In this document: positions 15,365-49,619 of the stretch, piece after piece
Numbering within the stretch: position 1 is the stretch's first letter
Layout of the letters: each line of letters opens with the position of its first letter
Assembly (NCBI GenBank): GCA_963737065.1
Contig: CAVTRC010000001.1
Span: 1,600,001 to 1,664,000 of the forward strand
DNA length: 64,000 bases
From: Candidatus Eremiobacteria bacterium
Lineage (GTDB): Bacteria > Vulcanimicrobiota > Vulcanimicrobiia > Vulcanimicrobiales > Vulcanimicrobiaceae
Direction: 5' to 3'
Notes under the pieces: generated by a model
What the model was told of the DNA's origin: nothing
The model's database searches: none
What the model saw: the letters and a program-made list of their open reading frames with translations, nothing else
Made by a program: the position numbers and the translations under genes

Positions 15365-16153
15365 ATGACGCTTATTCGAGGACGCGGACTCGGCCTCGAG
15401 CTTCGTTTCGCCGGTCGCGATTTCGACGCGGCGCTGGCCGAGCTATCGACCAAACTTAGCGAGCGTCCCGGGTTCTATCGCGGGTCGTCGGCAACAGCCG
15501 TCGTCGACGATCCGCCGCCCCCGGAAGACGGCATTACTCGTCTGCGCAGCCTCCTTCAAGAGCACGGCATCGAACTTGCAGCCGTCGAGCCCGCTGCAAG
15601 CGAAGAGCTTGCGCGCCGTCGCGCGATGCGTCCGCATCGCGAGCTCAAGCTCTCCGACTCCGCGCGCTCGCTCGTCGCCGACTTCGCCGGCGCGCGTTCG
15701 GACATTGCCGAGCGCCGTAAACGCGGCGACTCGAGCGTGCGCCGCACGGTGCATCGCGAGCCCGAACACGCAGCCCCCGCCCCCGCGTTGCATATCGCGC
15801 CGCCGCCGCCCGGCACGCTGTATCACGTCGGTACGTTGCGCGGCGGCCAAGCGCTACATCACGCCGGCAACATCATCGTCGTCGGCGACGTAAATCCCGG
15901 AACCGAGCTCGTCGCGACGGGCGATATCGTCGTGTTCGGCCGCTTGCTCGGTGTTGCGCACGCGGGCGCGCAAGGCGACGAGAGTGCAAAAGTCTACGCG
16001 TTGCATTTACAAGCGACGCAACTGCGCATCGCAACGAGTATCGCACTTGACGAGGACACGAGGCCGTCGGCCTCGCAACCAGAGATGGCGTTTTTGCGCG
16101 ATGGCCGTATCATCATCGCGCCGTTTTCGAAGGCGTCGGAGGTACTGAAGTAA
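15365..16153 (+). CDS. minC: Septum site-determining protein MinC
   Basis: TLRGGQ, GDVNPGTE, GVAHAG, QLRIA. Confidence 0.95.
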   Translation: MTLIRGRGLGLELRFAGRDFDAALAELSTKLSERPGFYRGSSATAVVDDPPPPEDGITRLRSLLQEHGIELAAVEPAASEELARRRAMRPHRELKLSDSARSLVADFAGARSDIAERRKRGDSSVRRTVHREPEHAAPAPALHIAPPPPGTLYHVGTLRGGQALHHAGNIIVVGDVNPGTELVATGDIVVFGRLLGVAHAGAQGDESAKVYALHLQATQLRIATSIALDEDTRPSASQPEMAFLRDGRIIIAPFSKASEVLK

Positions 16154-16154
16154 T

Positions 16155-16946
16155 ATGGCAGCACGTCGAATCGTCATTACCTCCGGTAAAGGCGGCGTCG
16201 GAAAGACGACCACGACCGCCAACCTCGGCGCGGCGCTTGCCAAGCGCGGGCATCGCGTGATTTTGGTCGATGCCGATATCGGTCTGCGCAACCTCGATCT
16301 CGTGCTCGGCTTGGAAAAACGCATCGTCTTCGATTTGGTCGAAGTCGCGGAGGGACGATGCCAGCTACGCCAGGCGCTGATCAAAGACAAACGCTTCGAA
16401 TCGCTCTCGATTCTCCCGGCGGCACAGACGCGCGACAAAGACGCGATCACGGAATCGCAGTTCGCAGCCATCATCGAACAAACCGCGGAACAAGCGGATT
16501 ACGTATTGATCGATTGTCCCGCGGGGATTGAAGGCGGATTCCGTAACGCCGTTGCGGGAGCAAAAGAAGCGATCGTCGTGACGACGCCGGAAGTGAGCGC
16601 GATTCGTGATGCCGATCGCGTCGTGGGAAAGCTCAACGATAAACAGCTTCCGATTCGCTTGATCGTCAATCGTCTACGTCCCGACATGGTGCGCAGCGGC
16701 GACATGCTCTCCGTTGAAGACGTCTGCGAGATTCTCTCGATTGAACTGGTCGGTATCGTTCCCGACGATGAAGAGATCATCGACACGACAAACAAAGGCG
16801 AACCGATCGTGCTCGACGATACGGCGCGTCTGCGCATGATTTACGACAAGATCGCGCGCCGTCTCGAAGGTGACCTCGTGCCCTTTACCAATTTCGACGG
16901 ACAGAGCTTGCTGGGTCGCCTTTTCGGCGCACGGAAAGCGGGGTAA
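16155..16946 (+). CDS. minD: Septum site-determining ATPase MinD
   Basis: SGKGGVGKTT, DADIGLRNLD, DCPAGIE, C-terminal amphipathic LLGRLFG. Confidence 0.96.
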   Translation: MAARRIVITSGKGGVGKTTTTANLGAALAKRGHRVILVDADIGLRNLDLVLGLEKRIVFDLVEVAEGRCQLRQALIKDKRFESLSILPAAQTRDKDAITESQFAAIIEQTAEQADYVLIDCPAGIEGGFRNAVAGAKEAIVVTTPEVSAIRDADRVVGKLNDKQLPIRLIVNRLRPDMVRSGDMLSVEDVCEILSIELVGIVPDDEEIIDTTNKGEPIVLDDTARLRMIYDKIARRLEGDLVPFTNFDGQSLLGRLFGARKAG

Positions 16947-16950
16947 CGCG

Positions 16951-17820
16951 ATGCATCTCCTTCGACAGGCCCAGGATGACAATGGCCCGGAATCCGACGC
17001 ATGTGTTCAGCCGGCGAAAAAGCTCGGCCGCGCGATCGTGCTGACGTCGGGTAAAGGCGGCGTCGGCAAGACGACGACGACGGCGAATCTCGGCACGGCA
17101 CTCGCGGCGCGCGGTGAGCGCGTCGTGCTCGTCGACGCGGACGTCGGTCTGCGCAATCTCGACATCGTGCTCGGTCTCGAGAGCCGGGTGAAGTATCATG
17201 TGCTCGACGTGCTCGAAGACAAAGTGTCGATCGACGATGCGCTGGTCGGTGACAAGCGCGTTGAGACGCTTTCGCTGCTCGCCGCGGCGCAGACACGCGA
17301 AAAAGATGAAGTCGATACCGAAAAAATGCGCGCGCTCGTTCAGACGCTGCGCGAACGATTCGATTACGTCCTGATCGACTGTCCCGCCGGCATCGAGCAA
17401 GGGTTCCACAACGCCGTCGTCGGTGCCGAAGAAGCGATCGTCGTTTGCACGCCTGAGGTTTCTGCGGTGCGCGACGTCGACCGGGTCGTCGGTTTGCTCG
17501 GCAATCGGTTCAAGCCGCAGTTGATCGTGAACCGCTTGCGTCCGCAATTGGTCAAGAAGGGGAAGATGCTTTCCGTCGACGACGTGAACGGTATTCTGCA
17601 TCTGCCGCTGCTCGGTGTAATCGCGGACGAACCGGAGATCATCGTCACGACGAATAAAGGCGAACCGCTTGCGTTACGCCGCGACGGCGCGACGGCGAGC
17701 GCGTATCACGCAATCGCCGCGCGCGTTGCGGGTGAAGACGTCCCCGCGCCGACGGTTGAAGTGAAAGAGCTGTCGTTTCTCGGCAAACTCGGCGCGCTCT
17801 TCGGAGGACGCAAATCGTGA
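16951..17820 (+). CDS. minD: Second MinD paralog; start uncertain
   Basis: SGKGGVGKTT, DADVGLRNLD, DCPAGIEQG, FLGKLGALFG; N-terminal LLRQAQDD is repeat-derived. Confidence 0.92.
   Translation: MHLLRQAQDDNGPESDACVQPAKKLGRAIVLTSGKGGVGKTTTTANLGTALAARGERVVLVDADVGLRNLDIVLGLESRVKYHVLDVLEDKVSIDDALVGDKRVETLSLLAAAQTREKDEVDTEKMRALVQTLRERFDYVLIDCPAGIEQGFHNAVVGAEEAIVVCTPEVSAVRDVDRVVGLLGNRFKPQLIVNRLRPQLVKKGKMLSVDDVNGILHLPLLGVIADEPEIIVTTNKGEPLALRRDGATASAYHAIAARVAGEDVPAPTVEVKELSFLGKLGALFGGRKS
16958..16981. repeat. Solo copy of the GIY-YIG-associated REP-like repeat
   Basis: TCCTTCGACAGGCCCAGGATGACA, 22/24 identical to 37104-37127. Confidence 0.8.
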
Positions 17821-30387: not shown

Positions 30388-30702
30388 GGCTAACTTTTGC
30401 CTTATCGCGGCGTCAGCGGCCGGATCGTGGCCCCTAGGCCACTTCACCGGGCGGCTTCCTTGCGCTAAGGCAAAATTTAACCGTGAAGCTTTGGGGCCGG
30501 GTCGACGGGTTTTGCGTTGACCCGCACTTCGAAGTGCAGGTGTGGGCTAACGTTTGCCTTATCGCGGCGTCAGCGGCCGGATCGTGGCCCCTAGGCGACT
30601 TCACCGGGCCGCTTCCTTGCGCTAAGGCAAAATTTAACCGTGAAGCTTTGGGGTCGGGTCGACGGGTTTTCCGTTGACGCGCACTTCGAAGTGGAGGTGT
30701 GG
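30388..30702. repeat. 157-bp tandem duplication containing a long imperfect palindrome and the 3' end of the M23 gene
   Basis: Copies at 30388-30545 and 30545-30702 differ at about 7 positions. Confidence 0.92.
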
Positions 30703-35392: not shown

Positions 35393-36541
35393 ATGAATTT
35401 CGATCTGACCGACGAGCAGAAAGCAATCCAAAACCTCGCGCGCGAGTTTGCGCAAAACGAGGTAAAGCCGCGCGCTGAAGAGATGGATCGCGAGGAAGCG
35501 TTCCCATACGACCTCGTGAACAAGATGGCTGAGCTCGGCTTTATGGGTCTGCCGTTTCCAGAAGAATACGGTGGCGCAGGAGCCGACACGGTGAGCTACG
35601 CTCTCGCGGTCATGGAGATCGCACGTGCCGATGCATCGACGGCAATCACAATGGCCGCGCACGTCTCTCTCGGAGCGACGCCTTTCTATTTATTCGGCAC
35701 CGAAGAGCAGAAACAGAAGTATCTCGTGCCGCTCGCGCAAGGCAAGACGTTGTGGGGCTTCGGGCTCACCGAACCCAACGCGGGGAGTGATGCCGGAAAT
35801 ACGACAACCAAGGCCTCGCTTCTAAACGGTCAGTGGGTGATCAACGGAACGAAAGCGTTTATCACCAATTCCGGCACCGAGATCAGCGGCGGAACGACGA
35901 TCACCGCCGTGACCGGCACGCGTCCTGACGGAAAGCTCGAGATTTCCACGCTGATCGTGCCGCAAGAGACGCCGGGCTTCACGCGCAGCAAGAAGTATAA
36001 GAAGATGGGCTGGCGCGCGTCGGACACGCGCGAGCTCAGTTTCAACGATGCAACGGTTCCGCAAGAGAACTTGCTTGGCCCACGAGGCGAGGGCTATCGT
36101 CAATTCCTGACGATTCTGGACGGCGGCCGCATCTCGGTCGCTGCACTTTCGGTCGGCCTCGCGATGGGTGCGTACGACGAAGCGCTTCAGTATTCAAAAG
36201 ATCGCATCGCCTTCGGCAAGCCGATCAGCAAATTTCAGGCGATTCAATTCAAGCTCGTCGACATGCTGTGTGAAATCGAACATGCGAAGCTGATGATTCT
36301 GAAAGCCGCGTGGGAGAAAGATCACGGCCGCGACTACGTGCAAAGCGCATCGCTCGCAAAACTTTACGCCGGCGAGCTTTCACGCCGAGTCGTCAACGAA
36401 GCGGTGCAAATTCACGGCGGCTACGGATTCATGGACGAATATCCCGTCTCGCGCATGTACCGCGATCAAAAAATCAACGAAATCGGCGAAGGCACGAACG
36501 AAGTACAACGTCTCGTGATCGCACGCCTAATGGGGTTGTAG
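35393..36541 (+). CDS. Acyl-CoA dehydrogenase
   Basis: GLTEPNAGSD, NGTKAFITN, QIHGGYG, IGEGTNEVQR. Confidence 0.96.
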   Translation: MNFDLTDEQKAIQNLAREFAQNEVKPRAEEMDREEAFPYDLVNKMAELGFMGLPFPEEYGGAGADTVSYALAVMEIARADASTAITMAAHVSLGATPFYLFGTEEQKQKYLVPLAQGKTLWGFGLTEPNAGSDAGNTTTKASLLNGQWVINGTKAFITNSGTEISGGTTITAVTGTRPDGKLEISTLIVPQETPGFTRSKKYKKMGWRASDTRELSFNDATVPQENLLGPRGEGYRQFLTILDGGRISVAALSVGLAMGAYDEALQYSKDRIAFGKPISKFQAIQFKLVDMLCEIEHAKLMILKAAWEKDHGRDYVQSASLAKLYAGELSRRVVNEAVQIHGGYGFMDEYPVSRMYRDQKINEIGEGTNEVQRLVIARLMGL

Positions 36542-36567
36542 CGACAGAACTCCCAGTGTGAAGTGAG

Positions 36568-36765
36568 CCGAGCCGCGTGTCATCGTGATCCGAGCCGTGT
36601 GTCATCGTGATCCGAGCCGCGTGTCATCGTGATCCGAGCCGCGTGTCATGGTGATCCGAGCCGCGTGTCATGGTGATCCGAGCCGCGTGTCATGGTGATC
36701 CGAGCCGCGTGTCATGGTGATCCGAGCCGTGTGCGATGGTGATCCGAGCCGTGTGTCATGGTGAG
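36568..36765. repeat. Tandem array, 9 x 22 bp (CCGAGCCGYGTGTCATSGTGAT)
   Basis: Exact 22-bp period; no unique spacers. Confidence 0.95.
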
Positions 36766-36770
36766 CGCAG

Positions 36771-37130
36771 CAGTGTCATCCTGAGCTTGTCGAAGGATCG
36801 TCTCGCAGCAGTAGCGCTGGAAATGAAGCGCTACTACGTTTATATGCTGCAATGCGCCGGCGGTTCGTTCTATGTCGGTATTACGAACGACCTTGAACGG
36901 CGCATCGGCGAGCACGACGTTGGCTGGAATCCGGCGTGCTATACGCACGAGCGTCGCCCTGTGCGCCTCGTCTATGTGGAGGATTTCGCGAACGTCGATG
37001 AAGCGATTCGTTGGGAAAAGCAGATCAAAAAATGGAACCGGCTGAAAAAGATTGCACTGGCGAACGGTGACTGGGACGGCGTGCGACTGTTCGGGCACGG
37101 GCGTCCTTCGACAAGCTCAGGATGACACTG
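36771..37130. mobile_element. Candidate GIY-YIG/REP element: nuclease gene between perfect 27-bp inverted repeats
   Basis: CAGTGTCATCCTGAGCTTGTCGAAGGA at 36771-36797 and its exact reverse complement at 37104-37130; mobility is inferred. Confidence 0.65.
36823..37125 (+). CDS. GIY-YIG nuclease family protein (YhbQ/UPF0213-like), 100 aa
   Basis: YYVYML...FYVGITNDLERRIGEH...YT...AIRWEKQIKKWNRLKK. Confidence 0.93.
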   Translation: MKRYYVYMLQCAGGSFYVGITNDLERRIGEHDVGWNPACYTHERRPVRLVYVEDFANVDEAIRWEKQIKKWNRLKKIALANGDWDGVRLFGHGRPSTSSG

Positions 37131-37194
37131 GGGCGCTCAGGAGACACTTGGGGCGCTCAGGATGACACTGGGGCGCTCAGGGTGACACTGGGGG
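37115..37194. repeat. Tandem array, 4 x 20 bp (GCTCAGGATGACACTGGGGC)
   Basis: Units at 37115, 37135, 37155, 37175. Confidence 0.92.
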
Positions 37195-38235
37195 CCATGC
37201 GTTTGCGCCGGGTTGTAACCACTGCGAACCGTCGGCAAATAGGACGCGCCGGACGGAGTAGACGACGGCTCCGGCGCCGTTGAACGGATCGGATGTATCT
37301 GCCAATGCATTTTCGCCGTCGATGACACAGTTGTCGCGCGCGGAATCGACGTCGTGAACGTTTGCCGGGCCGCCGACTTCAACGCCCGGAGCAAACGAAC
37401 CGCGGAGACGAAGCGGTGCAACGCGCCGGATGAACCCCAGCGTATCGAGAATCTCAATGTCGACGTCGACTTCGTTTGCGACCTTTTGTCCGTTGTTCGC
37501 GAACGAAATGCACGCCAAGCCTTCGCTGCCGTCGTTTCGCACGGCAGCAAAACCGCGCGTAACGCGCACTGCGGAACCGCCCGAACCAAGCGTCGAAGCT
37601 GCGAACGTGAGGCCACGCCACGGCTCGGAAGGTGCGGGTTGCGTCGTGTGCGCGGTTGACGCATCGATCAGTGCTCCGACGACCGCCCACGGATTGACCC
37701 CGATGCTCACCGACGAACCGGAGCTTTGTGTCGTCGTGTCCGTCTCCGTTCCGTTCGCGGTGTTTGTGGTCGTTGTTTGCGACGAAGAACTAGACGACGA
37801 CGCGATCGGAATTTGCAATTCGGGGAGTACTGCTCCGAGCACGTTAAACGAATGCCGGCGCGGTGCAGGGGTCGGCGGATTAGTAGGCGCCGGCGCTGCG
37901 GCCGGTTCCGCTAGTGCCTGCACCGTGGCAGGCCACGGTCCGCGAAGGAGATTGTAATCGATCGCGTAGTATGGAACGCCGATTTGCGCGTCGGTTACGC
38001 CGAGCGCGTGCAACGCGCCGCGCCCGTGTGACTCCAGCCAGTACATCATCGCATCGCGTTCGGGAGGCGAGAGCTGCGCAACGCGTGCGGTAACCTGCGC
38101 GAGCGGCGACGTCCGTACGGCGTTCAACGCATCGAGCAACGCGGGTGACGGCGTCGCGTTTTGCGCAAGCGCAGGCGAAACCGAAAATGTCGAAAGGGCA
38201 ACGAGCAGTACCGAAAGCCTATAGAAGAGCGTCAT
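37177..38235 (-). CDS. Secreted hypothetical protein, paralog of 39281-40096
   Basis: GGAGG RBS, signal peptide; shares YWL..GR.AL.A.G.TDAQIG and GFAAVR.DG....C.SF.N with the paralog. Confidence 0.82.
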   Translation of the reverse strand: MTLFYRLSVLLVALSTFSVSPALAQNATPSPALLDALNAVRTSPLAQVTARVAQLSPPERDAMMYWLESHGRGALHALGVTDAQIGVPYYAIDYNLLRGPWPATVQALAEPAAAPAPTNPPTPAPRRHSFNVLGAVLPELQIPIASSSSSSSQTTTTNTANGTETDTTTQSSGSSVSIGVNPWAVVGALIDASTAHTTQPAPSEPWRGLTFAASTLGSGGSAVRVTRGFAAVRNDGSEGLACISFANNGQKVANEVDVDIEILDTLGFIRRVAPLRLRGSFAPGVEVGGPANVHDVDSARDNCVIDGENALADTSDPFNGAGAVVYSVRRVLFADGSQWLQPGANAWPPVSP

Positions 38236-38286
38236 CGTGTGCCTCCGCTGCCGTAGCGCATATGTCCGTACTGAAAATACCACGCA

Positions 38287-38741: not shown

Positions 38742-39284
38742 ATGATTCGTCGTGCTCTCGTAACGGCCTTCGTTCTACTTCTTGCCGCCGCGCCTGCGTT
38801 GGCTGCGCTTAAGGAGGGAACCAAGGCGCCGGATTTCACGCTGCAGGCCACACAGGGCGGAAAAGTCTTTCCGTTCTCACTTGCGGACGCGTTGAAGAAC
38901 GGACCGGTCGTGTTGTATTTCTATCCGGCTGCATTTACGCCCGGGTGTACGATCGAAGCGCACGAATTCGCGGATGCAATCGACGAATACACCGCGCTCC
39001 ACGCGACGGTCATCGGCGTATCGCACGATCCGTTGGACAAGCTGCAGAAGTTCTCGGTCAGTGAATGTCGCAGCAAGTTCGCCGTTGCCGCTGATAGCGA
39101 TCAAGCGGTTGAAAAACAGTACGATGCCGTTCTCGACAAGGCGCCTCAGTACGCGAACCGCACCTCATACGTGATCGCTCCCGACGGCACGATCATCTAT
39201 ACGTATACGAACTTGAAGCCCGATGACCACGTGAAGAACACGCTCGCCGCACTGAAGGATTGGGAAGCCAAAACGAAACCGTGA
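38742..39284 (+). CDS. Exported peroxiredoxin (BCP/PrxQ type)
   Basis: Signal peptide, YFYPAAFTPGCTIEA, RTSYVI. Confidence 0.93.
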   Translation: MIRRALVTAFVLLLAAAPALAALKEGTKAPDFTLQATQGGKVFPFSLADALKNGPVVLYFYPAAFTPGCTIEAHEFADAIDEYTALHATVIGVSHDPLDKLQKFSVSECRSKFAVAADSDQAVEKQYDAVLDKAPQYANRTSYVIAPDGTIIYTYTNLKPDDHVKNTLAALKDWEAKTKP

Positions 39285-40096
39285 AGTACACGAACGCTCG
39301 CGTCGCGGCGATGGTTTTGGCCCTCGCCGCCTTTGTTACGCTGTTCTCCCCGCGCGCGGCGAACGCTGACGCATCGCAGCCGCTCATCAACGTGCTCAAC
39401 GAAATTCAGGGCCTCTCGGATAGTGATTTCGCAAGCGTCGTGAGCTGGGCGCGCAACGGCGCACCGCAGCCCTTTATGACGGCGTTTCAGCCGCAGCAGA
39501 CGCAAGGCGACATCCTGAATTTGAAAAGCGACGACCGGTACGCGGTGCTCTACTGGTTGCGCGGTTCCGGCCGCTCCGCACTCTACGCGCGCGGTGCGAC
39601 CGACGCGCAAATCGGCTCGCGCGATCCGCGCCGCGGGCCTTCGCCGACGCCGACGCCGAACCCGTGGCGTAATGTTCCGCTCGCGACGGCATCTCTGGAC
39701 GAAAACGTTCAGGGGAACATCAAGGTCATCGGCGGCTTCGCCGCGGTGCGCCGCGATGGTCGCGGCGCAATTGCATGTGTATCGTTCACGAATGTCGCGG
39801 CAAAAGTTGCGAACGAAGTGGTCTTCGAGTTTCCGCTGCTGAGCGATAGCGGCGTGGAACTCGGAAAATTGACGCTCGATCGCAAAGGCGAGTTTTCACC
39901 CAACGTGGCGATCGAGTCGTTCCGGCAGCTCAGCGACTGGCAAGGCGGATCGATGGGTCCGCGCGACCGCATCGCCAACTGCGCCCAGCGCGACTTAGGA
40001 ACCACGGCGCTGCCCATTCTGCAAGCGCGGCTTGCCGGCTACCGTATCGTCAAGGTGACCTATGACGACGGAACGACCTGGAATCCGGGTCAGTAG
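39281..40096 (+). CDS. Secreted hypothetical protein, paralog of 37177-38235
   Basis: GTGA overlap with the Prx stop; signal peptide; shared motifs. Confidence 0.82.
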   Translation: MKYTNARVAAMVLALAAFVTLFSPRAANADASQPLINVLNEIQGLSDSDFASVVSWARNGAPQPFMTAFQPQQTQGDILNLKSDDRYAVLYWLRGSGRSALYARGATDAQIGSRDPRRGPSPTPTPNPWRNVPLATASLDENVQGNIKVIGGFAAVRRDGRGAIACVSFTNVAAKVANEVVFEFPLLSDSGVELGKLTLDRKGEFSPNVAIESFRQLSDWQGGSMGPRDRIANCAQRDLGTTALPILQARLAGYRIVKVTYDDGTTWNPGQ

Positions 40097-49065: not shown

Positions 49066-49109
49066 GCTCGCCGCCGAAGGATGCAATCCTTCGACGAGCT
49101 GAGCATGAC
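49057..49109. repeat. Degenerate inverted doublet (REPIN-like) of the GIY-YIG-associated repeat
   Basis: TCATCGTGAGCTCGccgCCGAAGGAT-gca-ATCCTTCGACGAGCTGAGCATGAC between convergent genes. Confidence 0.75.
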
Positions 49110-49115
49110 GCGGTG

Positions 49116-49619
49116 TTACTGCGGTGGACGGCGATCGCGGTCGCGATGGCGATACTGGCCGTTGTACCCGTAGTATCCGCCGTTGCCGTAGCCGCCGTTG
49201 TTATAGCTGCCGTTACTGTAATAGCCGCCGTTGTTGTAGCCACCGTTGTTGTAGCCGCCGTTGTTGTAGCCGCCGTTATACCCGTAGCCGTTCTGACCGT
49301 TGATGTAACACTGCTGGCCGTTGCAGGCGACCTGCTCGCCTTGGTTTCCCGGATACCACGAGTAACCGTTGGGTGCGACGACATGTCCGTCGGCATAGAC
49401 CGTACTTCCGTCCGGCAAGTATCCCGTCACCGTCGTGGCTTCACGATGCTTGTTCGAGACGTTGATCGCGGTGGCGATGCCGGCAATCGCTGCCGCAGCG
49501 CCGATGATCGTGCGCGTTGTAGCTGCGCCGTCGGCGCGTGCAGGCGCGGCGATCGAGGTCATCATGACCCAGGTGAGCGCGAGTCCCGCAACGGCGGAGC
49601 GAATCAGTGAAGTGTTCAT
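49116..49619 (-). CDS. Secreted protein with Gly/Tyr/Asn-rich (YNNGG)n tail
   Basis: Signal peptide APARA; 15-bp coding repeats at about 49177-49280. Confidence 0.8.
   Translation of the reverse strand: MNTSLIRSAVAGLALTWVMMTSIAAPARADGAATTRTIIGAAAAIAGIATAINVSNKHREATTVTGYLPDGSTVYADGHVVAPNGYSWYPGNQGEQVACNGQQCYINGQNGYGYNGGYNNGGYNNGGYNNGGYYSNGSYNNGGYGNGGYYGYNGQYRHRDRDRRPPQ

What the first reader, a model, noticed from the sequence alone, without database searches (positions are those of the whole stretch)
36568..37194. Mirror-image tandem arrays grown outward from both inverted-repeat ends
Seen: the left 9 x 22 bp and right 4 x 20 bp arrays face each other. Each unit is the outer ~13 nt of the repeat (GTGTCATSSTGA-like) plus a side-specific linker (CCGAGCC versus GCCCCA). 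Left variants are ordered (units 1-3 CATCG, units 4-9 ATGG), implying stepwise addition. The unit at 36767-36786 matches the reverse complement of the right unit at 18/20. The last right unit provides V-S-P-stop for the neighbouring gene. Inference: repeated nicking at a fixed repeat-end position and repair duplicated the end plus flank, so unit boundaries may mark the cut site.
Basis: partly seen in the sequence, partly recalled or inferred. Interest (0 to 1): 0.75.

Follow-up and report, generated by a model that had tools for sequence, protein, structure and literature searches.

The report
Half-hairpin repeat arrays flanking Ssn nuclease
A small single-strand-DNA nuclease gene of the recently described Ssn type sits between inverted copies of its hairpin repeat, and the outer half of that hairpin has been copied head-to-tail many times on both sides, a pattern that recurs at related genes in several bacterial phyla.

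Summary
TRF finds 9.2 x 22 bp (36563-36764) and 4.0 x 20 bp (37115-37193) arrays facing each other, around a 36-nt, 94% inverted repeat and a 100-aa GIY-YIG gene (36823-37125).

This is an Ssn/SRM module, the site-specific ssDNA nuclease with its flanking hairpin repeat described by Chenal et al. 2025 (PMC11893778). The protein is 46% identical to an Azospirillum homolog flanked by canonical SRMs. The repeat here (GTCAY-NNT-GAGC-loop-CGA-ANN-R) is a subtype that the published search pattern misses. Its stem covaries strongly.

The array units are the 5' arm of the hairpin, cut off in the loop, plus flank. In 79 related loci plus the window, all 20 tandem arrays carrying this arm lie within 400 bp of an ssn gene. 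Single truncated copies also occur at repeats far from the gene: 3/92 far against 20/242 near, p=0.15.

How the arrays formed is not shown. I favour local tandem duplication with a breakpoint in the hairpin loop. Nuclease-triggered duplication remains a live rival.

It is a new variant of a known kind, of moderate interest.

The parts
36556..36576 (+). Degenerate outermost left unit (GTGTGAAGTGAGCCGAGCCGC), preceded by CTCCCA
   Evidence: Read. It resembles the 22-mer unit and, with its CCCAGT lead, the right-hand unit.
36577..36752 (+). Eight 22-bp units GTGTCATSGTGA + TCCGAGCCGY. Units 1-3 are CATCG, units 4-7 CATGG, unit 8 the variant GCGATGG. Each is the 5' arm of a GG-type hairpin repeat cut off after GTGA, plus flank.
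   Evidence: TRF (period 22, 9.2 copies, 95%); unit list; GG-type repeats GTCATGGTGAGC...CGAACCAT seen in L007, L009, L019, L020, L025 and L060.
36753..36772 (+). 20-bp truncated unit GTGTCATGGTGAGC + GCAGCA. It has the same design as the right-hand units and is part of the 36-nt inverted repeat.
36773..36799 (+). Complete left hairpin repeat (SRM-like): GTGTCAT CCTGAGC TTGT CGAAGG ATC, with its 5' end pointing away from the gene
   Evidence: Inverted repeat; stem covariation on 92 anchored repeats.
36805..36850 (+). Predicted mRNA hairpin that encloses the ssn start codon in its loop
   Evidence: -20.9 kcal/mol, z -2.8; stem also listed. Not general in the family: 6 of 65 genes have z<-2.
36823..37125 (+). 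ssn-like gene: 100-aa single-domain GIY-YIG nuclease. Its last codons (PSTSSG) and its stop codon lie in the right repeat.
   Evidence: Pfam PF01541, E 3.1e-17; translation; Y7, Y17, R27, H31 and E65 conserved; PDB 1ZG2 at 1e-15; 46% identity to the Azospirillum lipoferum 4B homolog flanked by canonical SRMs.
37103..37128 (-). Complete right hairpin repeat, inverted relative to the left one
37129..37194 (-). Linker and three truncated units (GCCCCA + GTGTCAYCCTGAGC; the middle unit has a 1-nt deletion), running outward from the right repeat
   Evidence: TRF (array 37115-37193, period 20, 4.0 copies including the arm of the complete repeat); unit list.
37177..37179 (-). Stop codon of the neighbouring ORF 37177-38283(-). 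The ORF's last residues V-S-P come from the outermost right unit.
16956..16982 (-). Solitary copy of the same repeat (TTGTCATCCTGGGCCTGTCGAAGGA), with no array, lying between two MinD-type ATPase genes
49079..49108 (-). Solitary diverged copy (GCGTCATGCTCAGCTCGTCGAAGGATTGC), with no array, downstream of a CMD-family gene

Best explanation
The locus is an Ssn/SRM module. It consists of a single-domain GIY-YIG nuclease gene bracketed by inverted copies of its cognate hairpin repeat. Members of this family bind the repeat as a hairpin in single-stranded DNA and cut a few nucleotides 5' of it; that activity is inferred here by homology and was not tested.

The repeat is GTCAT + 5' arm CCT-GAGC + loop TTGT + 3' arm CGA-AGG + ATC.

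The two arrays are local tandem amplifications of the flank plus the 5' arm of this repeat. Each unit breaks off inside the hairpin loop, after GAGC on the right side and in the innermost left unit, and after GTGA in the left 22-mers.

I infer that the first duplication arose by a break, stall or template switch at the loop of the extruded hairpin, and that the copies then expanded and homogenised in blocks by slipped-strand mispairing. On this reading the arrays are by-products of a fragile, hairpin-forming repeat that is concentrated around its nuclease gene, not functional parts of the system.

Shown: the anatomy, the family assignment, the hairpin, and the recurrence at other loci. Inferred: the duplication mechanism and the absence of function.
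For: Identity of the gene:
- Pfam GIY-YIG, E 3.1e-17, 100 aa, no other domain.
- Conserved Y7, Y17, R27, H31 and E65 in 40 aligned homologs. The paper's catalytic mutants in the N. meningitidis enzyme are Y6, Y17 and E64.
- 46% identity (E 3e-10) to the A. lipoferum 4B plasmid gene. That gene has 4 matches to the published SRM pattern within about 130 bp of it and sits between sufB and sufC. That genome is one of the 29 used to define SRMs.
- Related genomes (Niabella drilacis, Flavobacterium chilense, F. cheniae, Sphingomonas ursincola) are listed with SsnA/cd10448 homologs.

The repeat:
- Inverted repeat of 36 nt, 94%.
- 15 of 40 homologs end in PST(S/G)SG, that is, inside the same repeat.
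- 229 anchored copies in 1.32 Mb, 182 of them within 400 bp of an ssn gene.
- Stem covariation: 76.3% of cells paired against 55.6% in shuffles, and 105 double-sided changes against 30.9; 0 of 500 shuffles reach either observed value; all slid controls are lower.

The arrays:
- Of 71 tandem arrays in 79 loci plus the window, 20 carry the 5'-arm motif. All 20 lie within 400 bp of an ssn gene, a zone that is 6.7% of the sequence. None of the 44 far arrays carries it.
- Arrays of 3 or more arms: 12 near, 0 far.
- Truncated-arm arrays of the same design occur in L008, L014, L020, L021, L023, L025, L031, L032 (both sides, mirrored as here), L040 and L050.
- The identity between a truncated unit and the complete repeat ends 10-21 nt after the G of GTCA in all 23 arrays I read, and at 11-13 nt (after GAGC) in 13 of them.
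- Arrays of the 3' arm also exist, on the 3' side of the repeat (L056, L032). A common breakpoint in the loop predicts this.
- Junction microhomology of 3-5 nt in L014, L020 and L050.
Against: - Nearest-neighbour DNA folding does not predict the hairpin. The z-scores are 0.76 and 0.93 for the two complete repeats, and the arrays fold no better than shuffles. The stem rests on covariation only.
- The right-hand 20-mers show no junction microhomology, so simple slippage cannot have started them.
- Long arrays were seen only next to nuclease genes, which fits a nuclease-dependent process at least as well.
- The repeat fails the published SRM search pattern: 0 hits in the window, and 4 hits in the 79 loci, none beside an ssn gene.
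- No direct comparison with N. meningitidis SsnA or with CDD cd10448 was possible.
- Only 64 kb of the genome could be seen, so it is not established that the repeat is abundant genome-wide.
Confidence: 0.6

Rival explanations
1. Nuclease-driven polar duplication. The nuclease nicks the single-stranded repeat strand a few nucleotides 5' of the hairpin. Synthesis from the nick displaces a flap carrying the flank and the 5' arm, and retention of that flap, or a template switch at the hairpin loop, duplicates exactly that segment. Repeated cycles add units on the outer side of each repeat.
For: - Family members cut ssDNA a few nucleotides upstream of the repeat, on one strand only (PMC11893778). 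In the inverted arrangement this places the cuts on the outer side of both ends, where the arrays are.
- All 20 arm-bearing tandem arrays and all 12 arrays of 3 or more arms lie within 400 bp of an ssn gene.
- The right-hand units have no microhomology that could start slippage.
- Upstream arrays are on the gene's strand and downstream arrays on the opposite strand in nearly all cases.
Against: - The restart point is 0-13 nt upstream of GTCA, with no fixed distance.
- Truncated arm plus complete repeat also occurs 6.6-8.2 kb from any detected ssn gene. The frequency near versus far does not differ significantly (20/242 versus 3/92, p=0.15).
- Most repeats lie near ssn anyway (182 of 229), so proximity of the arrays is partly a sampling effect.
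- 3'-arm arrays (L056) are not explained by a cut 5' of the repeat.
- The enzyme acts in trans and could cut any copy.
Confidence: 0.22
2. Footprints of insertion. Repeats, or the whole repeat-ssn-repeat element, insert into the loop of a resident repeat just after GAGC. The resident 5' arm is left in front of the incoming copy, and the arrays record repeated insertions.
For: - Nested repeats of different stem subtypes, with the inner copy starting right after the outer GAGC and the outer 3' arm following it: L044 9755, L075 10285-10327, L008 and L007.
- In the window the left truncated units are GG-type while the complete repeat is CC-type. L073 likewise has a GG-type arm in front of a TC-type repeat.
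Against: - In the window no matching 3' arms (YTGYCGAACCAT) follow the complete repeat or lie beyond the right end.
- Eight near-identical 22-mers require expansion in place anyway.
- A GIY-YIG nuclease has no known strand-transfer activity (established knowledge of the superfamily, not tested here).
Confidence: 0.1
3. Functional arrays. The half sites serve as extra binding or decoy sites for the nuclease, as alternative pairing partners for the single 3' arm, or as regulators of ssn expression.
For: - The 5' part of the repeat (bases just upstream of the palindrome) governs cleavage, and half sites paired in trans are cut in vitro (PMC11893778).
- The arrays recur in several phyla.
- No sigma-70-like promoter was found between the array and the gene.
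Against: - Unit length, linker and copy number differ between loci, and even between the five tandem gene copies in L050 (3.3 to 11.5 copies).
- The left 22-mers carry a GG-type arm that cannot pair with the AGGAT 3' arm of this locus.
- Most ssn genes have no such array: arm-bearing arrays occur in 14 of 80 sources.
- No Rfam family matches.
Confidence: 0.05
4. Assembly artefact: the short tandem repeats were collapsed or expanded by the assembler.
For: Short tandem repeats are error-prone in short-read metagenome assemblies, and no reads are available.
Against: - The units carry ordered internal variants.
- The source contig is 2.5 Mb long.
- The same design is seen in independent assemblies from several phyla.
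Confidence: 0.03

Closest known systems
Ssn nucleases with Ssn-related motifs (NTS-ssnA-NTS of Neisseria meningitidis and homologs; Chenal et al. 2025, PMC11893778; Results, Discussion, one Methods section and Supplementary data 4 and 5 read)
   Same: - A single-domain GIY-YIG protein of about 94-100 aa.
- The gene is flanked by inverted hairpin repeats that begin with GTCAT and end with ATC after the stem.
- The repeat also occurs elsewhere in the genome.
- 46% identity to a homolog flanked by canonical SRMs.
   Different: - The repeat has a short 4-5 bp stem, a conserved GAGC...CGA core and an 11-nt interior. It does not match the published degenerate pattern.
- In the paper's table the Bacteroidota genomes that carry this subtype show no SRM enrichment.
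- The word 'tandem' occurs 0 times in the paper's main text, and none of the 12 (of 23) passages shown for 'truncated', 'partial', 'half', 'array' or 'cluster' describes truncated genomic repeats.
Neisserial intergenic mosaic elements (arrays of dRS3 hairpins separated by RS elements; Bentley et al. 2007, PMC1797815; passages read)
   Same: Arrays built from the hairpin repeat that the Ssn nuclease recognises, variable in copy number between strains and lying next to genes.
   Different: NIME arrays contain whole 20-bp dRS3 palindromes separated by about 50-150-bp RS spacers. Here the units are 20-22 bp, contain only the 5' half of the hairpin, and abut a complete repeat.
REP/BIME repeats with RAYT (TnpA-REP) genes and IS200/IS605 elements (compared in the Discussion of PMC11893778; PMC3116915 and PMC8266576 seen in search listings only)
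   Same: A single gene flanked by inverted copies of a dispersed hairpin repeat that its product recognises as single-stranded DNA, with the repeats clustering into larger structures.
   Different: The enzyme is a GIY-YIG hydrolytic nuclease, not an HUH/Y1 transposase. No strand-transfer chemistry is known for it. REP clusters are made of whole palindromes.
Ordinary minisatellite expansion by slipped-strand mispairing (textbook mechanism, recalled)
   Same: Head-to-tail units, variants ordered in blocks, variable copy number, and microhomology at some junctions.
   Different: The breakpoints are not random. One always falls in the hairpin loop, and arrays of 3 or more units were found only beside the nuclease gene.

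Membership tests
Ssn nuclease / SRM system (GIY-YIG cd10448) | Single-domain GIY-YIG protein of roughly 90-100 aa | tested here: met
   PF01541, E 3.1e-17, over residues 33-105 of the long ORF; 100 aa from ATG 36823; no second domain apart from a sub-threshold T5orf172 match.
Ssn nuclease / SRM system (GIY-YIG cd10448) | Catalytic Tyr, Tyr and Glu present (Y6, Y17, E64 in the N. meningitidis enzyme) | tested here: met
   Y7 is nearly invariant; Y17, R27, H31 and E65 are invariant in 40 homologs. The correspondence to the N. meningitidis numbering is by position, not by a direct alignment.
Ssn nuclease / SRM system (GIY-YIG cd10448) | Sequence homology to an accepted Ssn homolog | tested here: met
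   46% identity over residues 2-84, E 3e-10, to WP_014249537.1 of A. lipoferum 4B, which is flanked by 4 matches to the published SRM pattern. That genome is listed in Supplementary data 5.
Ssn nuclease / SRM system (GIY-YIG cd10448) | CDD assignment to cd10448 rather than to another small GIY-YIG family (for example UPF0213/YhbQ) | not testable with these tools
   No CDD library is available. The PDB sequence hits are two UPF0213 proteins (1ZG2 at 1e-15, 1YWL at 2e-11). Indirect support: genomes holding 49-53% identical homologs are marked cd10448-positive in Supplementary data 4.
Ssn nuclease / SRM system (GIY-YIG cd10448) | Gene flanked on both sides by inverted hairpin repeats with an oriented 5' GTCAT motif | tested here: met
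   36-nt inverted repeat at 94%. Stem covariation: 0 of 500 shuffles reach the observed value. Of 182 repeats near ssn genes, 134 are oriented with the 5' end outward and 48 the other way.
Ssn nuclease / SRM system (GIY-YIG cd10448) | Repeat matches the published SRM search sequence HGTCWYN(0-2)YYVSBRHN(0-5)WNVSBRGN(0-2)RNCYNB | tested here: not met
   0 hits in the window. There are 4 hits in the 79 loci, none beside an ssn gene. The same script finds 4 hits beside the Azospirillum gene.
Ssn nuclease / SRM system (GIY-YIG cd10448) | Repeat dispersed in many copies through the genome | tested here: inconclusive
   Two further solitary copies in 64 kb. The rest of the 2.5-Mb genome was not available.
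Ssn nuclease / SRM system (GIY-YIG cd10448) | Binds the repeat only as ssDNA and cuts a few nucleotides upstream | not testable with these tools
   This needs the purified protein.
REP-associated tyrosine transposase / IS200-IS605 | HUH/Y1 transposase encoded between the repeats | tested here: not met
   The only family above the Pfam cut-off is GIY-YIG.
Neisserial intergenic mosaic element arrays | Whole dRS3 palindromes separated by about 50-150-bp RS elements | tested here: not met
   The units are 20-22 bp and lack the 3' arm of the hairpin. The definition is from PMC1797815.
CRISPR array | Identical repeats separated by unique spacers of similar length | tested here: not met
   The units abut one another with no unique spacers.
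GIY-YIG homing endonuclease (I-TevI type) | Nuclease domain joined to a separate DNA-binding domain | tested here: not met
   The protein is 100 aa and is filled by the nuclease domain alone.

The most novel reading that the evidence does not exclude
The half-hairpin arrays are a genomic record of nuclease action. Each unit is the stretch between the Ssn cut 5' of the repeat and a second break or template switch at the hairpin loop (after GAGC). The nested repeat-in-repeat copies that start exactly after GAGC would then show that these repeats, and perhaps the repeat-ssn-repeat module, are actively mobile, with the loop of another repeat as their target. Ssn modules would be a GIY-YIG-based counterpart of REP/RAYT elements, and their cut sites and insertion sites could be read directly from genomes.
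Probability: 0.2. Interest if true: 0.7.

Novelty: new variant of a known kind. Interest (0 to 1): 0.45.

Why it matters
The Ssn family was described only in 2025, and its role outside Neisseria is open.

1. This locus and its relatives show a large branch of the family: 577 of 602 candidate stretches were confirmed in one capped scan of species-representative genomes. The 79 fetched loci come from Eremiobacterota/Vulcanimicrobiota, Nitrospirota, Acidobacteriota, Bacteroidota, Patescibacteria and others. This branch is paired with a hairpin repeat that the published search pattern does not detect, so surveys based on that pattern undercount the system.

2. The recurrent breakpoint in the hairpin loop, the half-hairpin arrays and the nested copies give concrete, testable handles on how these repeats multiply. 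The authors of the family description left that question open when they compared the module with insertion sequences.

3. If the unit boundaries do reflect cutting, genomes could be used to predict the cleavage sites of many Ssn enzymes, which are of interest as ssDNA tools.

If the arrays are plain slippage, they are at least a marker of hairpin extrusion in vivo.

Tried and rejected
- The published SRM pattern gave no hit in the window and 4 hits in the 79 loci, none beside an ssn gene. The subtype had to be defined anew.
- Folding the repeats and the arrays as ssDNA gave no energy better than shuffles. Only the diverged solitary copy at 49075-49115 folds well, and through a different stem.
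- Rfam returned one sub-threshold snoRNA match only.
- A sigma-70 promoter scan found none. The two terminator-like sites are no more than the shuffles give, and one of them is the start-codon hairpin.
- NCBIfam has no family for the protein.
- Full-text search for the repeat strings returned 45 papers. The 15 listed are on unrelated topics, and the other 30 were not inspected. A search for Ssn + GIY-YIG + single-stranded + repeat since 2024 found 4 papers, and only the family description is relevant. A search for GIY-YIG with REP/RAYT terms added nothing.
- CRISPR, homing-endonuclease and REP/RAYT membership were rejected (see the membership tests).
- Nested insertion as the origin of the window's own arrays was rejected, because no 3' arms follow the complete repeat or lie beyond the right end.
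- GTGA microhomology at the outer end of the left array was considered as the seed for slippage. It was left open, because that stretch can equally be read as a diverged outermost unit.
- Generality of the start-codon hairpin is not supported: 6 of 65 genes have z<-2 and the median z is 0.2.
- tblastn against plasmids (36 records) and phages (23 records) found only homologs below 60% identity. Only the Azospirillum plasmid hit was followed up.
- The printed output was cut (loci L025-L054 were not shown). The later scans covered all loci.

Not done: structure prediction, complex prediction, and the exhaustive protein-representative search.

Not checked:
- Supplementary files 13 and 14 of PMC11893778 were not searched.
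- Of Supplementary data 4, only part 1 of 271 and six species rows were read.
Full report
**1. What is there**

The acyl-CoA dehydrogenase gene (35393-36541, +; three Acyl-CoA_dh domains) and an unannotated ORF (37177-38283, -; no Pfam family) enclose a compact structure.

Tandem Repeats Finder reports two arrays:
- 36563-36764, period 22, 9.2 copies, 95% matches.
- 37115-37193, period 20, 4.0 copies, 91% matches.

Between them lies a 36-nt inverted repeat, 94% complementary (36762-36797 / 37104-37139). It surrounds an ORF whose Pfam match is the GIY-YIG catalytic domain (E 3.1e-17). The gene most likely starts at ATG 36823 (MKRYYVYML..., the usual start in 40 aligned homologs). It ends at 37125, with its last six codons and its stop codon inside the right repeat.

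Read outward-to-inward on each side, the anatomy is as follows.
- Left: one degenerate unit (36556-36576). Then eight 22-mers GTGTCATSGTGA+TCCGAGCCGY (36577-36752): three CATCG, four CATGG, one variant. Then one 20-mer GTGTCATGGTGAGC+GCAGCA (36753-36772). Then the complete repeat GTGTCATCCTGAGCTTGTCGAAGGATC (36773-36799).
- Right, on the minus strand: three 20-mers GCCCCA+GTGTCAYCCTGAGC (the middle one has a 1-nt deletion), then the complete repeat (37103-37128).

The 14-mer core occurs 9 times with up to 2 mismatches against 0.35 expected.

Two more copies of the complete repeat lie alone in the window, each intergenic and without an array:
- 16956-16982(-), between two MinD-type genes.
- 49079-49108(-), after a CMD-family gene.

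**2. What it is**

A literature search led to Chenal et al. 2025 (PMC11893778). I read its Results, Discussion and one Methods section. The paper reports:
- Single-domain GIY-YIG proteins of about 94 aa (CDD cd10448) form the Ssn family of site-specific nucleases that act only on single-stranded DNA.
- The N. meningitidis enzyme binds a hairpin repeat (NTS, CGTCATTCCCGCGMAVGCGGGAATCYRG) and cuts a few nucleotides upstream of it.
- The genes are typically flanked by inverted copies of such repeats, called Ssn-related motifs (SRMs).

The window's repeat has the same layout: GTCAT, a stem, then ATC.

Three observations link the protein to that family.
1. The catalytic positions are conserved.
2. 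tblastn finds a 46% identical gene (E 3e-10) on a plasmid of Azospirillum lipoferum 4B. That gene lies between sufB and sufC. It has four exact matches to the published SRM pattern within about 130 bp, and the genome is one of the 29 used to define SRMs.
3. Genomes that hold 49-53% identical homologs in my locus set are marked as carrying SsnA/cd10448 homologs in the paper's Supplementary data 4 (Niabella drilacis, Flavobacterium chilense, F. cheniae, Sphingomonas ursincola).

I could not run CDD or align to the Neisseria protein directly. The two PDB sequence hits are UPF0213 proteins.

**3. The repeat is a subtype that the published pattern misses**

The published degenerate pattern has no hit in the window. 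It has 4 hits in the 79 related loci, none beside an ssn gene.

I fetched 79 loci (1.25 Mb) around relatives of the protein from species-representative genomes. In that scan 577 of 602 candidate stretches were confirmed and the best 80 were kept. The best identity is 62%, so the window's own genome is not in the collection.

The loci come from Eremiobacterota/Vulcanimicrobiota, Nitrospirota, Acidobacteriota, Bacteroidota, Patescibacteria and one Sphingomonas. With extra copies they hold 86 ssn genes, or 87 with the window.

Their flanks carry GTCA-Y-NN-T-GAGC-(loop)-CGA-A-NN-R. I selected copies only by the fixed anchors GTCW, GAGC and CGA. That gives 229 instances, 182 of them within 400 bp of an ssn gene.

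On 92 distinct 24-nt copies the proposed stem (positions 4-8 with 20-24) behaves as follows:
- 76.3% standard pairs, against 55.6% in shuffles.
- 105 cells with changes on both sides, against 30.9 +/- 8.2.
- 0 of 500 shuffles reach either observed value, and every slid control is far lower.

Stem variants seen are CCT/AGG, GGT/ACC, TCT/AGA, ACT/AGT and GCT/AGC. The left array of the window therefore carries the 5' arm of a different, GG-type variant, while the complete repeats are CC-type.

Nearest-neighbour folding does not predict this short stem. The structural evidence is covariation only.

In the paper's table the Bacteroidota genomes show SRM enrichment of about 1, consistent with their repeats having been missed.

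**4. The arrays recur**

In the 79 loci plus the window, TRF finds 71 arrays (period 10 or more, at least 2.8 copies).
- 20 carry the 5'-arm motif. All 20 lie within 400 bp of an ssn gene, in 14 of 80 sources, although that zone is 6.7% of the sequence.
- None of the 44 arrays farther away carries it.

Chains of three or more arms number 12 near and 0 far.

Truncated-arm arrays occur in L008, L014 (14-mers), L020 (23-mers), L021 (20-mers), L023 (21-mers), L025 (18-mers), L031, L032, L040 (22-mers) and L050 (15-mers). L032 is the closest parallel to the window: 30-mers, four truncated units on one side and one on the other, mirrored.

Truncated 5' arms always precede a complete repeat. The apparent exceptions (L049, L065, L070) are chance matches of the loose pattern.

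The identity between the innermost truncated unit and the complete repeat ends 10-21 nt after the G of GTCA, that is, inside the hairpin interior, in all 23 arrays I read. It ends at 11-13 nt (just after GAGC) in 13 of them. The next unit restarts 0-13 nt upstream of GTCA.

3'-arm arrays also exist, on the other side of the repeat (L056, 17-mers; L032).

Nested copies, with a complete repeat of one stem type sitting right after the GAGC of another whose 3' arm follows, occur in L044, L075, L008 and L007.

**5. Is the nuclease needed?**

Among complete repeats, 20 of 242 near an ssn gene are preceded by a truncated arm, against 3 of 92 farther away (L017, L031 and a doubtful L063). Fisher p = 0.15. 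The window's right array is not counted in this test, because its neighbouring unit has a 1-nt deletion.

So single duplications are not demonstrably tied to the gene. Long arrays were seen only beside it, but some of those are not independent (L050 has five tandem gene copies). 'Far' here also means at most 10 kb.

**6. Mechanism**

Shown:
- The units are flank plus 5' arm.
- One breakpoint is always in the loop.
- The arrays are polar and mirrored because the repeats are.
- Variants are ordered in blocks.

Inferred: a break, stall or template switch at the loop of the extruded hairpin created the first duplication, and slippage did the rest. Junction microhomology in L014, L020 and L050 supports slippage. 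The right-hand units of the window have none.

The variable restart distance and the distant doublets speak against a fixed cut being written into the units.

I put about 0.85-0.9 on the Ssn/SRM identity and about 0.5 on passive duplication as the origin of the arrays. The overall figure of 0.6 covers the combined statement.

**7. Comparison and novelty**

The module belongs to a family described in 2025. REP/RAYT modules and NIME arrays work alike in outline but fail the membership tests.

Two things appear to be new, as far as my searches reach:
- The repeat subtype and its breadth across phyla.
- The half-hairpin arrays with loop breakpoints, together with the nested copies.

The lineage of the window (probably Eremiobacterota) is judged only from the best hits of this one gene and is tentative.

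Noticed in passing
window 36805-36850 (+): The ssn start codon (36823) lies in the loop of a strong predicted mRNA hairpin (-20.9 kcal/mol, z -2.8). Some Eremiobacterota homologs show the same feature (L006 both copies, L015), but the family as a whole does not (6 of 65 genes with z<-2). It may be a translational brake like the one described for some transposase genes; that comparison is recalled, not checked.
   Followed up: partly
L050 10001-12430: A Bacteroidales MAG carries five head-to-tail copies of ssn plus a 15-mer array (GTCAGAGCGAGCGAA). Each gene copy has the same 46% identity to the query protein, and the arrays hold 7.5, 8.5, 11.5, 10.5 and 3.3 copies. The whole module is therefore itself tandemly amplified.
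   Followed up: partly
L044 9755-9800; L075 10285-10327; L008 9882-9940 and 10330-10400; L007 near 8640: Nested hairpin repeats: a complete repeat of one stem subtype lies immediately after the GAGC of another repeat, whose 3' arm follows. It looks like insertion of a repeat into the loop of another repeat.
   Followed up: partly
window 15365-17820: minC is followed by two MinD/ParA-type ATPase genes in tandem (16155-16946 and about 17000-17820). A solitary copy of the hairpin repeat lies in the short spacer between them.
   Followed up: partly
window 30388-30702: A 157-bp unit repeated twice in tandem at 95% identity (TRF score 581). Its nature is unknown.
   Followed up: no
window 49116-49619 (-), repeats at 49170-49290: An ORF with no Pfam family contains 15-, 30- and 48-bp periodic repeats (GTAGCCGCCGTTGTT). 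On the coding strand these give a Gly/Tyr/Asn-rich low-complexity protein. A solitary hairpin repeat lies just downstream of it.
   Followed up: no
window 37177-38283 (-) and 39260-40096 (+): The right-hand neighbour and a nearby divergently oriented ORF look like paralogs (similar N-terminal and C-terminal stretches). Neither has a Pfam family assigned: the first was scanned and matched none, the second was not scanned. The first runs about 9 residues past the point where the second ends, and its last residues come from the repeat unit.
   Followed up: no
Eremiobacterota loci L009, L016, L020, L021 (upstream of ssn) and window 36589-36598: In this phylum the hairpin repeat is often followed by a second, similar module (CCCGAGC...GTCGAGGG). 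The CCGAGCC linker of the window's 22-mers resembles the 5' arm of that second module. A C-rich tract (CCCAGT, CCCCAT) commonly precedes GTCAT, so the right-hand 'linker' GCCCCA may be part of the repeat's usual 5' flank.
   Followed up: partly
L080 (Azospirillum lipoferum 4B plasmid AZO_p3, 255374-255992): A canonical ssn gene with paired inverted SRMs on each side sits between sufB and sufC, inside the Fe-S cluster assembly operon.
   Followed up: partly
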